DNA of 64,000 bases from Escherichia coli. GTDB taxonomy: Bacteria; Pseudomonadota; Gammaproteobacteria; Enterobacterales; Enterobacteriaceae. The stretch is from assembly GCF_024223415.1 (NCBI RefSeq), contig NZ_CP100500.1, one strand, 5' to 3'. The translations under genes were made by a program, and so were the position numbers. The notes under the pieces were generated by a model. It saw only the letters and a program-made list of their open reading frames with translations. It was not told the DNA's origin and did no database searches. Below, in pieces: positions 48,464 through 50,720 of the stretch. Every line of letters begins with the position of its first letter. Within the stretch, counting starts at the first letter, position 1.

Positions 48464-48567
48464 AATTCTTGACCTCTCTTTACTTCCTTTTATGGTAAGG
48501 GGCTGGACGCTACATTGTTAGCCAGATATTCTGCCCGGTATGTTCAAATTTCCTGAATGAGAACGAA

Positions 48568-49464
48568 ATGGCCAAAGAAAGGGCATTAACGCTGGAAGCA
48601 CTACGGGTTATGGATGCGATCGATCGCCGGGGCAGTTTTGCGGCGGCAGCGGATGAGCTGGGACGCGTGCCTTCGGCACTTAGCTACACCATGCAAAAAC
48701 TGGAAGAAGAGCTGGATGTGGTGCTGTTTGACCGCTCGGGCCATCGCACCAAATTCACCAATGTCGGGAGGATGTTGTTGGAGCGAGGGCGCGTTTTGCT
48801 GGAAGCCGCAGATAAACTGACTACTGATGCGGAAGCTCTCGCGCGCGGTTGGGAAACGCATCTCACCATTGTGACCGAAGCGCTGGTACCGACACCTGCC
48901 TTTTTCCCGTTAATCGACAAACTGGCGGCAAAAGCCAATACCCAACTGGCAATCATCACAGAAGTGCTGGCGGGGGCGTGGGAACGGCTGGAGCAGGGGC
49001 GGGCGGATATTGTTATCGCGCCGGATATGCATTTTCGTTCCTCGTCGGAGATCAACTCGCGCAAGCTCTATACGTTAATGAACGTCTACGTTGCCGCGCC
49101 TGATCACCCGATTCATCAGGAGCCGGAACCGTTATCTGAAGTGACGCGTGTGAAATATCGTGGAATTGCGGTGGCGGATACCGCTCGTGAGCGCCCGGTG
49201 TTGACCGTACAGCTGCTGGACAAACAGCCGCGCTTAACGGTGAGCACGATTGAAGATAAACGTCAGGCATTACTGGCGGGGCTTGGCGTGGCGACGATGC
49301 CGTATCCGATGGTCGAAAAAGATATTGCGGAAGGGCGGTTGCGTGTCGTCAGCCCGGAATCGACCAGCGAGATCGATATTATTATGGCCTGGCGTCGTGA
49401 CAGTATGGGGGAAGCGAAATCCTGGTGTCTGCGGGAAATTCCCAAACTTTTTAGCGGAAAATAA
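48568..49464 (+). CDS. yhaJ: LysR-family transcriptional regulator
   Basis: 298-aa ORF with N-terminal HTH. Confidence 0.88.
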   Translation: MAKERALTLEALRVMDAIDRRGSFAAAADELGRVPSALSYTMQKLEEELDVVLFDRSGHRTKFTNVGRMLLERGRVLLEAADKLTTDAEALARGWETHLTIVTEALVPTPAFFPLIDKLAAKANTQLAIITEVLAGAWERLEQGRADIVIAPDMHFRSSSEINSRKLYTLMNVYVAAPDHPIHQEPEPLSEVTRVKYRGIAVADTARERPVLTVQLLDKQPRLTVSTIEDKRQALLAGLGVATMPYPMVEKDIAEGRLRVVSPESTSEIDIIMAWRRDSMGEAKSWCLREIPKLFSGK

Positions 49465-49514
49465 TATTTGTTATTGTTAATAAAAAGGGGCGAAATATCG
49501 CCCCAATTCTAAGA

Positions 49515-49871
49515 TTAATTTGAACCAAACTTCGGATCGTTTCCGTAACGATTGCTGCCAGAAGTACCTTCTGTGCAGAAAAAAACCAGAAGCACGAGCC
49601 AGCCAATAAACGGAACAAAAAAGAGCAAGGCCCAGGCACCTGAACGGTCGGTATCGTGTAAGCGACGGATAGCAAGCGCAAGGACGGGAAGGAAGGTTGC
49701 CAGCAAATAAAGCATAGACAGATATGGAAGCTCCAGACCTAAAATCAATTGAATGACATTGATAATAGCGCCGACGATGGCGTTAATCAGAGTAAACATC
49801 CAGTACTCTTTACGACGTGCGCGACCAGAGAAACCAACATAATTTTTTAATACGGATAAATACCACTGCAT
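49515..49871 (-). CDS. yhaI: DUF805 inner-membrane protein
   Basis: 118-aa ORF MQWYLSVLKNYVGFSGRARRKEYWMF…; paralogue of yhaH. Confidence 0.85.
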   Translation of the reverse strand: MQWYLSVLKNYVGFSGRARRKEYWMFTLINAIVGAIINVIQLILGLELPYLSMLYLLATFLPVLALAIRRLHDTDRSGAWALLFFVPFIGWLVLLVFFCTEGTSGSNRYGNDPKFGSN

Positions 49872-50112
49872 AAAAACATCCCTTTAATTAAAAGTGACGA
49901 AAGTCTATTCCGGGTATTGTGTAAATGCTATTCGTATCTTTCTTTTTCGGATGTTATAAAGGTTTTGATATTTAAGATAAATACATGGTTATTTTTTATA
50001 GGTAATTTATATAACGACATTGAAATATTTTAAATAAACATTAGTAAATTATTCATTCATCAACATGATGATAAAAGCCGGATGAGTCAGACATCCGGCG
50101 AGCAGATTTGTT

Positions 50113-50478
50113 TTAAGGTTCCAGTTTTGGATCAGGTCCAAAGCGGTTTTCGCCTGGCGTACCCGCCTGGCAGTTAAAGACGATGATAATAAGCCAGCCG
50201 ATAAACGGGATTAAGAATAGCAGTGCCCACCACGCCGAGCGGTCGGTGTCGTGCAGGCGGCGGAACTGAACTGCCCACCACGGTAAAAACACCAGAATAC
50301 CGTAGATTGTCGTCAGGATGCCTTCGCCACCAGCGCGTTGCCAGCCTAACATTTTATCCAGCAGCCCCAGCACGAACGTAAAGATGATGTTGACCAGAAT
50401 AAACATCCAGTACTCTTTGCGCCGCGCACGACCCCGGAAACCGACATAATTTTTTAGTACTTTCAGATACCAGTCCAT
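50113..50478 (-). CDS. yhaH: DUF805 inner-membrane protein
   Basis: ORF 50113..50499; start MDWYLKVLKNYVGFRGRARRKEYWMF gives 121 aa. Confidence 0.85.
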   Translation of the reverse strand: MDWYLKVLKNYVGFRGRARRKEYWMFILVNIIFTFVLGLLDKMLGWQRAGGEGILTTIYGILVFLPWWAVQFRRLHDTDRSAWWALLFLIPFIGWLIIIVFNCQAGTPGENRFGPDPKLEP

Positions 50479-50599
50479 TTTTGCCTCAATTTTGCTCAAT
50501 CACTTGTTTTTAAAGCAGCAAATTAAGAATAGACGTGAATGAAATGGCAGTAAATATTATCGCGATGAATTAATAAGGAGCTGTGAAGGATAAGGGCAA

Positions 50600-50720
50600 G
50601 CGCAAAATCGCCAGATGCGCTACGCTTATCTGGCCTGCGCGGTCATTGCAACATATTGAATATAAATGTTTTGTAGGTTTGATAAGGCGTTCACGCCGCA
50701 TCCGACATGAACAACATGCA
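50600..50720. repeat. REP-like palindromic elements
   Basis: GCGCTACGCTTATCTGGCCTGC and GTAGGTTTGATAAGGCGTTCACGCCGCATCCGACA. Confidence 0.7.

What the first reader, a model, noticed from the sequence alone, without database searches (positions are those of the whole stretch)
49515..50478. Tandem DUF805 paralogues yhaI and yhaH, each with its own AT-rich upstream region
The two small membrane proteins share a near-identical N-terminus (M(D/Q)WYL(K/S)VLKNYVGF…GRARRKEYWMF) and C-terminal core (RRLHDTDRS(A/G)WWALL…IGWL), indicating a local duplication. They are separated by about 240 bp of AT-rich DNA containing a hairpin plus T-run terminator for yhaH. Function is unknown.
Basis: seen in the sequence. 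Interest (0 to 1): 0.2.

Follow-up and report, generated by a model that had tools for sequence, protein, structure and literature searches.

The report
E. coli yhaH and yhaI genes
These are the two already annotated E. coli genes yhaH and yhaI, old and well-diverged copies of a small three-helix membrane protein of unknown biochemical function; yhaH is conserved across enteric bacteria, whereas yhaI is a fast-evolving, optional copy missing from about a fifth of E. coli strains.

Summary
Window 49515-49871(-) is yhaI (118 aa) and 50113-50478(-) is yhaH (121 aa). They are 56% identical (E 7e-48), and both match Pfam DUF805. A 241-bp spacer of 28% GC separates them and begins with the yhaH terminator hairpin.

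The "local duplication" reading needs qualifying, because the duplication is not recent. YhaH forms a tight clade across nine enterobacterial genera (82-88% identity). YhaI-like genes occupy the same slot before yhaJ in Citrobacter, Intestinirhabdus and Superficieibacter, but are only 55-66% identical to each other. Whether yhaI arose in place or was inserted is unresolved: the sister grouping has 14% bootstrap.

yhaI is accessory. Among 5426 complete E. coli genomes, about 80% carry it, in two main allele classes, one with an internal 173-nt tract at dS ~0.9. About 18% have yhaH alone, as do E. marmotae, Salmonella and Klebsiella.

Published data show separate regulation. yhaI is induced 40-fold by CpxR and 36-fold by Ler. 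yhaH is an SdsR target in Salmonella and is required by phages ΦWec188/190.

No operon partner and no structural homologue was found. This is an ordinary, already annotated locus of low interest.

The parts
49515..49871 (-). yhaI coding sequence (118 aa plus stop): DUF805 three-helix inner-membrane protein, the accessory, fast-evolving copy
   Evidence: ORF; Pfam DUF805 at 111 bits; RefSeq annotation; identical to YHAI_ECOLI; GC 44.9%, GC3 45.8%; AF2 model with pLDDT 89 and helices 20-44, 50-73, 78-99
50113..50478 (-). yhaH coding sequence (121 aa plus stop): DUF805 three-helix inner-membrane protein, the conserved core copy
   Evidence: ORF; Pfam DUF805 at 121 bits; RefSeq annotation; identical to YHAH_ECOLI; 82-88% identical across genera (matrix); the ATG at 50478 is supported by a conserved GAGG ribosome-binding site and loss of conservation upstream
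49872..50112 (-). 241-bp AT-rich spacer: yhaH terminator plus the yhaI promoter and regulatory region
   Evidence: 28.2% GC overall and 18% in its middle; comparable 217-223-bp spacers at ~30% GC in Citrobacter; no Rfam family; only short unconserved ORFs
50077..50099 (-). Intrinsic-terminator-like hairpin after yhaH (GCCGGATG-N7-CATCCGGC, then UUUUAU); the stem ends resemble a REP element
   Evidence: Terminator scan; -15.1 kcal/mol, z = -3.0. The U-tract is short, so some read-through is possible (inference)
49902..49907 (-). Candidate -10 element of a yhaI promoter (TAGACT; TATATT in Citrobacter, TATGTT in Intestinirhabdus), about 30 nt before the ATG
   Evidence: Alignment of upstream regions; coordinates. 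This is inferred only; the consensus scan found no sigma-70 site
49879..49884 (-). yhaI ribosome-binding site (AAGGGA), within the motif AAGGGATGTTT conserved across genera
50034..50048 (+). Candidate CpxR box ATAAACATTAGTAAA (one mismatch to GTAAA-N5-GTAAA) upstream of yhaI
   Evidence: There are 8 such matches in the window against 3.9 expected, so this is weak evidence on its own
49487..49504 (.). Bidirectional terminator hairpin GGGGCGA-N4-TCGCCCC shared by the convergent genes yhaI and yhaJ
   Evidence: -16.3 and -16.6 kcal/mol, z = -5.6 and -4.1; a homologous hairpin follows the yhaI-like genes of Citrobacter and Intestinirhabdus
50479..50554 (-). yhaH promoter and 5' UTR: TTTACT (50549-50554), 17 nt, TATTCT (50526-50531), a conserved UTR block CTTTAAAAACAAGTGATTGA (50496-50515), and the ribosome-binding site GAGG
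   Evidence: Conserved in Escherichia, Salmonella, Klebsiella and Citrobacter; coordinates; the predicted ~41-nt UTR fits the Salmonella reporter that spans -43 to +45 and is repressed by SdsR (PMC5137417)
49564..49736 (-). Mosaic tract inside yhaI (codons 46-103: second helix, loop, third helix). About 41% of E. coli genomes carry a version that is 31% divergent
   Evidence: 53 differences in 173 nt, dS ~0.91 and dN ~0.16, with identical flanks; 2226 genomes fall in the 90-95% identity band
49579..49585 (-). T7 homopolymer in yhaI (codons V96-F97-F98) where +1 and -1 frameshift variants occur
   Evidence: Simulated T8 and T6 genes reproduce database proteins P0036 (exact match; 190 contigs) and P0048 (138 of 139 residues; 345 contigs)

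Best explanation
The locus holds two old paralogues, each coding for a small DUF805 inner-membrane protein. Each protein has an N-terminal amphipathic helix and three transmembrane helices. Two conserved basic motifs, GRARRKEYW and RRLHDTDRS, are predicted to face the cytoplasm.

The genes are separate transcription units on the minus strand.
- yhaH is the conserved copy. It has a promoter and ~41-nt leader conserved across genera, and its own hairpin terminator. In Salmonella the leader is a target of the SdsR small RNA.
- yhaI lies 241 bp downstream, behind a very AT-rich regulatory region. I infer that this region keeps it silent in ordinary growth by H-NS-type silencing. Published data show switching on by envelope stress (CpxR, 40-fold) and by the anti-silencer Ler (36-fold). 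It ends at a bidirectional terminator shared with the convergent gene yhaJ.

The copies separated before the enterobacterial genera split. yhaH has stayed nearly constant since then. yhaI evolves about three times faster, and has been lost, recombined and frameshifted repeatedly. It is dispensable: about 18% of E. coli strains, and many related species, have only yhaH.

The biochemical activity is not known. My best guess, an inference, is a small membrane-embedded homeostasis or scaffold protein. YhaH would be the housekeeping form, which some phages exploit at the inner-membrane step of infection. YhaI would be a stress-induced variant.
For: Shown here:
- Identity and family.
- Three hydrophobic helices, with K/R clustered in residues 9-21 and 69-76, and an AF2 model at pLDDT 89.
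- Family-wide invariant residues G16, R17, R20, E22, W24, R69, R70, H72, D73.
- Terminators.
- Conserved yhaH promoter and leader, and a conserved ribosome-binding site and -10-like element for yhaI.
- YhaH clade at 99% bootstrap with 82-88% identity, against 55-66% among YhaI-like genes.
- The same gene order, yqjG-yhaH-yhaI-yhaJ, in C. amalonaticus and C. rodentium. One copy in Salmonella, Klebsiella, E. marmotae, a cryptic Escherichia clade and E. coli IHE3034. Four copies in Superficieibacter.
- E. coli census: the yhaI cassette is in 4357 of 5426 genomes and the single-copy junction in 993 of 5426.
- Mosaic allele and frameshift variants.

From papers:
- CpxR overexpression raises yhaI 3.2-fold on arrays and 40.3-fold by qRT-PCR, but yhaH only 1.9-fold (PMC2731931).
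- Ler activates yhaI 36-fold in EHEC (PMC3891560).
- SdsR represses Salmonella yhaH, whose protein rises towards stationary phase (PMC5137417).
- A yhaH mutant resists ΦWec188/190 and is complemented (bioRxiv 10.1101/2024.11.29.626071 and PMC12695924).
- YhaH-GFP localises to the membrane (PMC3225971).
Against: - H-NS silencing is inferred only from base composition and the Ler effect. No binding data were available.
- No sigma-70 consensus site passed the scan in either upstream region. The promoter elements rest on conservation alone.
- The candidate CpxR box is a one-mismatch match in AT-rich DNA, and the CpxR effect may be indirect.
- The yhaH terminator has only four U's, so read-through into yhaI cannot be excluded.
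- Topology is unsettled. The positive-inside rule predicts N-terminus in and C-terminus out. A C-terminal GFP fusion of YhaH nevertheless fluoresces at the membrane, which would suggest the C-terminus is inside.
- Nothing tested here bears on biochemical function. There is no conserved neighbour, no PDB sequence or fold relative and no defence-system match.
- The sister relationship of the YhaH and YhaI-like clades has only 14% bootstrap support.
Confidence: 0.75

Rival explanations
1. yhaI did not arise in place. It is a foreign DUF805 gene, with its AT-rich promoter and terminator, that was inserted between yhaH and yhaJ. It then spread or was lost among lineages by recombination in the conserved flanks.
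For: - yhaI GC3 is 46% against 62% for yhaH, and the spacer falls to 18% GC.
- YhaI is as similar to an Exiguobacterium protein (61%) as to any YhaH (52-56%) (matrix).
- Its distribution is patchy. The single-copy Escherichia genomes (IHE3034, cryptic clade, E. marmotae) share one homologous 36-bp junction with its own hairpin.
- The flanks of IHE3034 are ordinary E. coli sequence (98-99%).
- The grouping of YhaH with YhaI-like genes has only 14% bootstrap support.
Against: - The NJ point estimate does place the two clades as sisters.
- Tandem DUF805 copies recur in unrelated phyla: 6 of the 80 loci fetched by pattern search, besides the enterobacterial case, carry more than one copy. Duplication in place is therefore a usual route for this family.
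- No integrase, transposase or repeat boundary flanks the cassette.
- DUF805 is rare on phages and plasmids.
- Low GC3 could also reflect weak expression.
Confidence: 0.3
2. yhaI is a recent tandem duplicate of yhaH that arose within E. coli, which is the simplest reading of the first reader's note.
For: Same strand, adjacent, same family, and 78% nucleotide identity over the first 96 nt.
Against: - Only 56% amino-acid identity.
- 0 of 200 bootstrap trees group E. coli YhaI with Escherichia YhaH.
- Codon identity at shared residues (15 of 22) is no higher than in cross-species comparisons (12 of 20 to 15 of 23).
- Positional counterparts exist in other genera.
Confidence: 0.02
3. yhaH and yhaI form one operon, and yhaI is expressed mainly by read-through from the yhaH promoter.
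For: Same strand; the yhaH terminator has a short U-tract; one paper lists 'yhaH yhaI yhaJ' as a putative operon.
Against: - yhaJ is on the opposite strand, so that grouping was mechanical.
- A 241-bp spacer with a stable hairpin lies between the genes.
- The responses are very different: 40-fold against 1.9-fold with CpxR, and Ler affects only yhaI.
- yhaI has its own conserved ribosome-binding site and -10-like element.
Confidence: 0.12
4. The array is shaped by phages. YhaH is an inner-membrane entry factor, and the variable, stress-induced YhaI changes or blocks that route. This would explain the presence/absence, the allelic mosaic and the copy-number variation.
For: - YhaH is required by ΦWec188/190.
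- yhaI shows presence/absence, a deeply divergent allele and frameshifts.
- Copy number varies from 1 to 4 between genera.
- A phage protein family (phrog_12855, 'moron' category) is homologous.
Against: - The divergent tract shows purifying selection (dN/dS ~0.18), and its replacements are mostly L/I/F swaps within membrane helices.
- There is no PADLOC match.
- No experiment links YhaI to any phage.
- Loss and frameshifts are equally expected for a dispensable gene.
Confidence: 0.1

Closest known systems
E. coli K-12 YhaH (b3103, UniProt YHAH_ECOLI) and YhaI (b3104, YHAI_ECOLI)
   Same: The protein sequences are identical. The neighbours are the same: yqjG, yhaJ, yhaK.
   Different: Nothing in the coding regions differs. 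The window differs from K-12 by a few bases, and by a short stretch next to the REP element upstream of yhaH.
Pfam PF05656 (DUF805; COG3152, 'uncharacterized membrane protein YhaH')
   Same: Both proteins match the full model. Both carry the family's invariant residues and three hydrophobic helices.
   Different: No difference. The family itself has no assigned function, no solved structure and no conserved gene neighbour.
Inner-membrane proteins that phages need after adsorption, such as ManYZ for lambda and NfrB for N4 (comparison from general knowledge)
   Same: YhaH is an inner-membrane protein whose loss blocks infection by specific phages that bind LPS first.
   Different: The step that is blocked has not been defined. 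There is no sequence or fold relation, and nothing is known for YhaI.
AT-rich genes silenced by H-NS and activated by Ler (comparison from general knowledge of xenogeneic silencing)
   Same: The yhaI upstream region is 18-28% GC in a 50% GC genome, and Ler activates yhaI 36-fold.
   Different: H-NS binding and derepression were not shown. yhaI is not on a recognisable island or mobile element.

Membership tests
Pfam DUF805 (PF05656) | Match to the family profile above the curated gathering score (25.7 bits) | tested here: met
   YhaI 111.3 bits, YhaH 120.9 bits, both covering the full model
Pfam DUF805 (PF05656) | Conserved motifs G-R-A-R-R-x-E-Y-W before the first helix and R-R-L-H-D between the second and third helices | tested here: met
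   Invariant or nearly invariant in a 48-sequence alignment spanning many phyla, and present in both proteins
Pfam DUF805 (PF05656) | Small integral membrane protein with three transmembrane helices | tested here: met
   Hydropathy segments at about 23-45, 48-69 and 77-102; AF2 helices 20-44, 50-73, 78-99 at pLDDT 89. Orientation is not settled.
Pfam DUF805 (PF05656) | Location in the cytoplasmic membrane | not testable with these tools
   Known only from the literature: YhaH-GFP gives a membrane signal (PMC3225971)
Recent tandem gene duplicate | The copies are each other's closest relatives, with unsaturated synonymous sites | tested here: not met
   56% identity; 0 of 200 bootstrap trees; codon identity no higher than between species; positional counterparts in other genera
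Intrinsic (Rho-independent) terminator, after yhaH and after yhaI | GC-rich stem-loop followed by a U-run at the 3' end of the gene | tested here: met
   Scan hits at 50099-50077 and 49504-49487; -15.1 and -16.3 kcal/mol, z = -3.0 and -5.6. Actual termination was not tested.
CpxR regulon (direct target) | Induction when CpxR is raised or activated | not testable with these tools
   Literature only: 40.3-fold by qRT-PCR on CpxR overexpression (PMC2731931)
CpxR regulon (direct target) | GTAAA-N5-GTAAA box upstream of the promoter | tested here: inconclusive
   One match with one mismatch at 50034-50048. There are 8 such matches in the window against 3.9 expected by chance.
H-NS-silenced gene | Markedly AT-rich regulatory DNA relative to the genome | tested here: met
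   Spacer 28.2% GC, 18% in its middle, against 50.2% for the window
H-NS-silenced gene | H-NS occupancy, and derepression in an hns mutant | not testable with these tools
   Only indirect support: Ler, an H-NS antagonist, activates yhaI 36-fold (PMC3891560)
Known anti-phage defence systems (PADLOC) | Match to a defence-system protein model | tested here: not met
   No significant hit; the best has E = 0.075

The most novel reading that the evidence does not exclude
The DUF805 array next to yhaJ may be a small battleground with phages. On this reading, YhaH is an inner-membrane entry factor. The optional, envelope-stress-induced and unusually variable YhaI associates with it, or replaces it, and so alters or blocks phage genome entry. 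That would account for the presence/absence polymorphism, the deeply divergent allele and the 1-4 copy variation between genera.
Probability: 0.1. Interest if true: 0.5.

Novelty: already known. Interest (0 to 1): 0.2.

Why it matters
It matters little as a discovery. Both genes, their family and their paralogy are already in every E. coli annotation.

The added value is context for anyone who studies these uncharacterised genes:
- yhaH is the conserved copy. It now has a published phage phenotype.
- yhaI is an optional, separately regulated and fast-evolving copy, missing from about a fifth of E. coli strains.
- The "K-12" yhaI is only one of two main allele classes.
- No operon partner or structural relative is available to suggest a function, so genetics is the way forward.

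Tried and rejected
- **First NJ tree.** It printed 100% support for a YhaH plus YhaI-like clade. That value was an artefact, because support was computed before re-rooting. A proper bipartition bootstrap with 56 sequences gives 99% for YhaH, 39% for YhaI-like and 14% for their sister grouping. Only the identity matrix is used.
- **Gene conversion between the 5' ends.** No excess synonymous identity was found.
- **Guilt by association.** I scanned 127 immediate neighbours of DUF805 genes from 74 loci against Pfam. No recurring partner appeared except another DUF805 gene, seen 4 times.
- **Other libraries.** Rfam gave only a sub-threshold REP-related hit outside the spacer. PADLOC gave nothing. 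NCBIfam gave only sub-threshold hits.
- **Small ORFs in the spacer.** They are short and not conserved.
- **Genome-collection scan with YhaI peptide words.** It gave a taxonomically scattered sample and, oddly, no Escherichia record. It could not be used as a census.
- **Phage and plasmid searches.** DUF805 is rare there, so no mobility was inferred.
- **K. pneumoniae 'yhaI' used as a LAMP target.** I take it to be a different DUF805-like gene: its primers encode RRMHD and the yhaJ locus of Klebsiella holds only a YhaH-type copy; its genomic position was not checked.

Full report
**What is there**

The window carries two minus-strand ORFs at 49515-49871 (118 aa) and 50113-50478 (121 aa from the ATG). 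They lie between the LysR-type regulator gene yhaJ (48568-49464, plus strand, convergent) and the glutathione-transferase-like gene yqjG. BLASTP of the pair gives 56% identity over 118 residues, E = 7e-48. Both match Pfam DUF805 over the whole model, at 111 and 121 bits against a cut-off of 25.7. The stretch matches 5421 of 5426 complete E. coli genomes, where RefSeq annotates it as yhaH, yhaI and yhaJ. The proteins are identical to UniProt YHAI_ECOLI and YHAH_ECOLI.

**Anatomy of the locus**

The 241-bp spacer (49872-50112) is 28% GC, and 18% GC in its middle. Its first feature on the coding strand is the hairpin GCCGGATG-N7-CATCCGGC at 50077-50099, followed by UUUUAU (-15.1 kcal/mol, z = -3.0). 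yhaI ends at a stronger hairpin, 49487-49504, which serves both yhaI and the convergent yhaJ.

Upstream of yhaH, several elements are conserved in Escherichia, Salmonella, Klebsiella and Citrobacter:
- the hexamers TTTACT, 17 nt, TATTCT;
- a leader block, CTTTAAAAACAAGTGATTGA;
- a GAGG ribosome-binding site.

The implied leader of about 41 nt fits the Salmonella reporter (-43 to +45) that the SdsR small RNA represses (PMC5137417).

Upstream of yhaI, only three things are shared with the corresponding genes of other genera: the ribosome-binding region (AAGGGATGTTT), a -10-like hexamer about 30 nt before the ATG, and general AT-richness. The consensus promoter scan found no site in either region, so these promoter elements are inferred from conservation.

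A one-mismatch CpxR-type box lies at 50034-50048. Such matches occur 8 times in the window against 3.9 expected by chance.

Rfam found nothing in the spacer. Its small ORFs are short and unconserved.

**The proteins**

Hydropathy shows three hydrophobic segments. Lys/Arg cluster at residues 9-21 and 69-76. An AlphaFold2 model built on a 48-sequence alignment is confident (pLDDT 89.4). It shows an N-terminal amphipathic helix (2-10) and helices 20-44, 50-73 and 78-99, the last kinked at Pro87. The family-wide invariant residues are G16, R17, R20, E22, W24, R69, R70, H72, D73, P87, N107, G110 and P113.

The positive-inside rule predicts the N-terminus inside and the C-terminus outside. A C-terminal GFP fusion of YhaH is nevertheless fluorescent at the membrane (PMC3225971). 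Orientation is therefore unsettled.

**Is it a local duplication?**

It is not a recent one.

- Proteins of the YhaH type are 82-88% identical across genera (matrix). They form a clade with 99% bootstrap support.
- Proteins of the YhaI type occupy the same slot, immediately before the 3' end of yhaJ, in Citrobacter amalonaticus, C. rodentium, Intestinirhabdus and Superficieibacter.
- In the first three of these, as in E. coli, a homologous GGGGC...GCCCC terminator follows the gene.
- These YhaI-type proteins are nevertheless only 55-66% identical to each other.
- E. coli YhaI never groups with Escherichia YhaH (0 of 200 bootstrap trees).
- Synonymous codon identity in the conserved 5' end is no higher within E. 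coli than between species.

The NJ tree does place the YhaH and YhaI-like clades as sisters, but with 14% bootstrap support. The 100% printed was an artefact of re-rooting and is withdrawn.

yhaI has lower GC3 than yhaH in every genome examined: 46% against 62% in E. coli. Two origins remain open, and I favour the first at roughly 60:40.
- An old in-place duplication followed by fast evolution of one copy. Tandem DUF805 copies recur in unrelated phyla, and nothing mobile flanks the cassette.
- Insertion of a foreign DUF805 cassette.

**Copy number and population structure**

The array before yhaJ varies between taxa:

| Taxon | DUF805 copies before yhaJ |
|---|---|
| Salmonella, Klebsiella, E. 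marmotae, a cryptic Escherichia clade, E. coli IHE3034 | 1 (YhaH type) |
| Intestinirhabdus | 1 (YhaI type) |
| Most E. coli, two Citrobacter species | 2 |
| Superficieibacter | 4 |

Among 5426 complete E. coli genomes:
- The 648-bp yhaI cassette is present at 80% coverage or more in 4357 genomes.
- Of these, 2098 are at least 99% identical to the window and 2226 are 90-95% identical.
- The single-copy junction is present in 993 genomes.
- A few genomes have IS1 insertions, or an IS1-associated loss of both genes.

The 90-95% class differs by one internal tract of yhaI, gene nt 136-308 (window 49564-49736). It has 53 differences in 173 nt, with dS about 0.91 and dN about 0.16. The sequence on both sides is identical. 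This pattern indicates recombination with a deeply diverged yhaI lineage under purifying selection.

The single-copy E. coli share their 36-bp yhaH-yhaJ junction and its hairpin with E. marmotae and the cryptic clade. Their flanks, however, are ordinary E. coli sequence (98-99%).

The K-12/window-type allele has a T7 run at 49579-49585. Simulated T8 and T6 versions reproduce database proteins P0036 (exact match) and P0048 (138 of 139 residues), seen on 190 and 345 contigs. Some of these may be homopolymer sequencing errors.

**What is published**

Both genes are still listed as uncharacterised in the 2024 y-ome review (PMC11551758). The reported phenotypes and regulation are:
- CpxR overexpression raises yhaI 3.2-fold on arrays and 40.3-fold by qRT-PCR, and yhaH only 1.9-fold (PMC2731931).
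- Ler activates yhaI 36-fold in EHEC. It is the only chromosomal gene outside mobile elements on that list (PMC3891560).
- Salmonella yhaH is a validated SdsR target, and its protein rises towards stationary phase (PMC5137417).
- A yhaH mutant of an E. coli host resists phages ΦWec188 and ΦWec190, and complementation restores sensitivity. The authors describe YhaH as a required inner-membrane protein (bioRxiv 10.1101/2024.11.29.626071 and PMC12695924).

**Search for functional clues**

- Among 127 immediate neighbours of DUF805 genes from 74 diverse loci, no Pfam family recurs except DUF805 itself.
- There is no PADLOC match.
- A phage protein family in the 'moron' category is homologous (phrog_12855, E = 8e-28). 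Real phage or plasmid carriage is rare, however.

**Most likely working model**

There are two separate transcription units.

yhaH is the conserved, expressed copy, tuned after transcription by SdsR. At least one phage group uses it at the inner membrane.

yhaI is an optional copy. Its extremely AT-rich control region probably keeps it silent until envelope stress (Cpx) or an anti-silencer (Ler) switches it on.

Three things are shown: the anatomy, the conservation pattern and the population states. The regulation is taken from papers. H-NS silencing, direct CpxR control and any biochemical role are inferences.

**Verdict**

This is a correct observation of an already annotated, ordinary locus. 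The interpretation needs one correction: the duplication is old, not recent, and one copy is accessory. Interest is low.

Noticed in passing
window 50608-50707: A pair of REP-type palindromes (GCCAGATGCGCTACGCTTATCTGGCC ... GGCGTTCACGCCGCATCCGAC) lies between yqjG and the yhaH promoter. There is a sub-threshold Rfam naRNA4 hit at 50676-50712. The element is absent from the shorter Salmonella and Klebsiella spacers. The sequence just beside it differs between this window and K-12.
   Followed up: partly
window 48469-48493 (-): Two overlapping one-mismatch CpxR-type boxes (GTAAAGAGAGGTCAA and ATAAAAGGAAGTAAA) lie just upstream of yhaJ, in the region that is the yhaJ-yhaK divergent intergenic region in the annotated E. 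coli records.
   Followed up: no
E. coli genomes H1, H16, H52; locus L002 4115-4812: IS1 copies turn up repeatedly in this small locus in different E. coli genomes. In one genome (L002) IS1 sits where both DUF805 genes should be.
   Followed up: partly
window 49579-49585: A T7 run inside yhaI. Database proteins corresponding to T6 and T8 frameshifts are seen on 345 and 190 contigs. They may be real inactivations or homopolymer sequencing errors.
   Followed up: partly
L094 1269-3331 (Superficieibacter sp.): Four tandem DUF805 genes of very different sequence precede yhaJ (called at 119, 123, 119 and 144 aa).
   Followed up: partly
L090 2501-2860 (E. marmotae, protein P0131): This YhaH lacks three residues (QFR) at the start of the otherwise invariant RRLHD motif, and reads ...WWAVRLHD.... 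It may be a damaged copy.
   Followed up: no
Phage records NC_029120.1 16349-16693 and NC_025434.1 16337-16681: Shigella Stx phages 75/02 and POCJ13 contain an unannotated DUF805-like reading frame, about 36% identical to YhaI.
   Followed up: no
E. coli genomes, yhaI cassette: In 61 genomes the yhaI cassette is only 80-90% identical to the window. This may be a third allele class and was not examined.
   Followed up: no
window 50319-50348 (YhaH residues 44-53): The short loop LGWQRAGGEG between the first two helices of YhaH is identical in all eight YhaH-type sequences (six genera) shown in the alignment. YhaI has a shorter and variable loop there.
   Followed up: no
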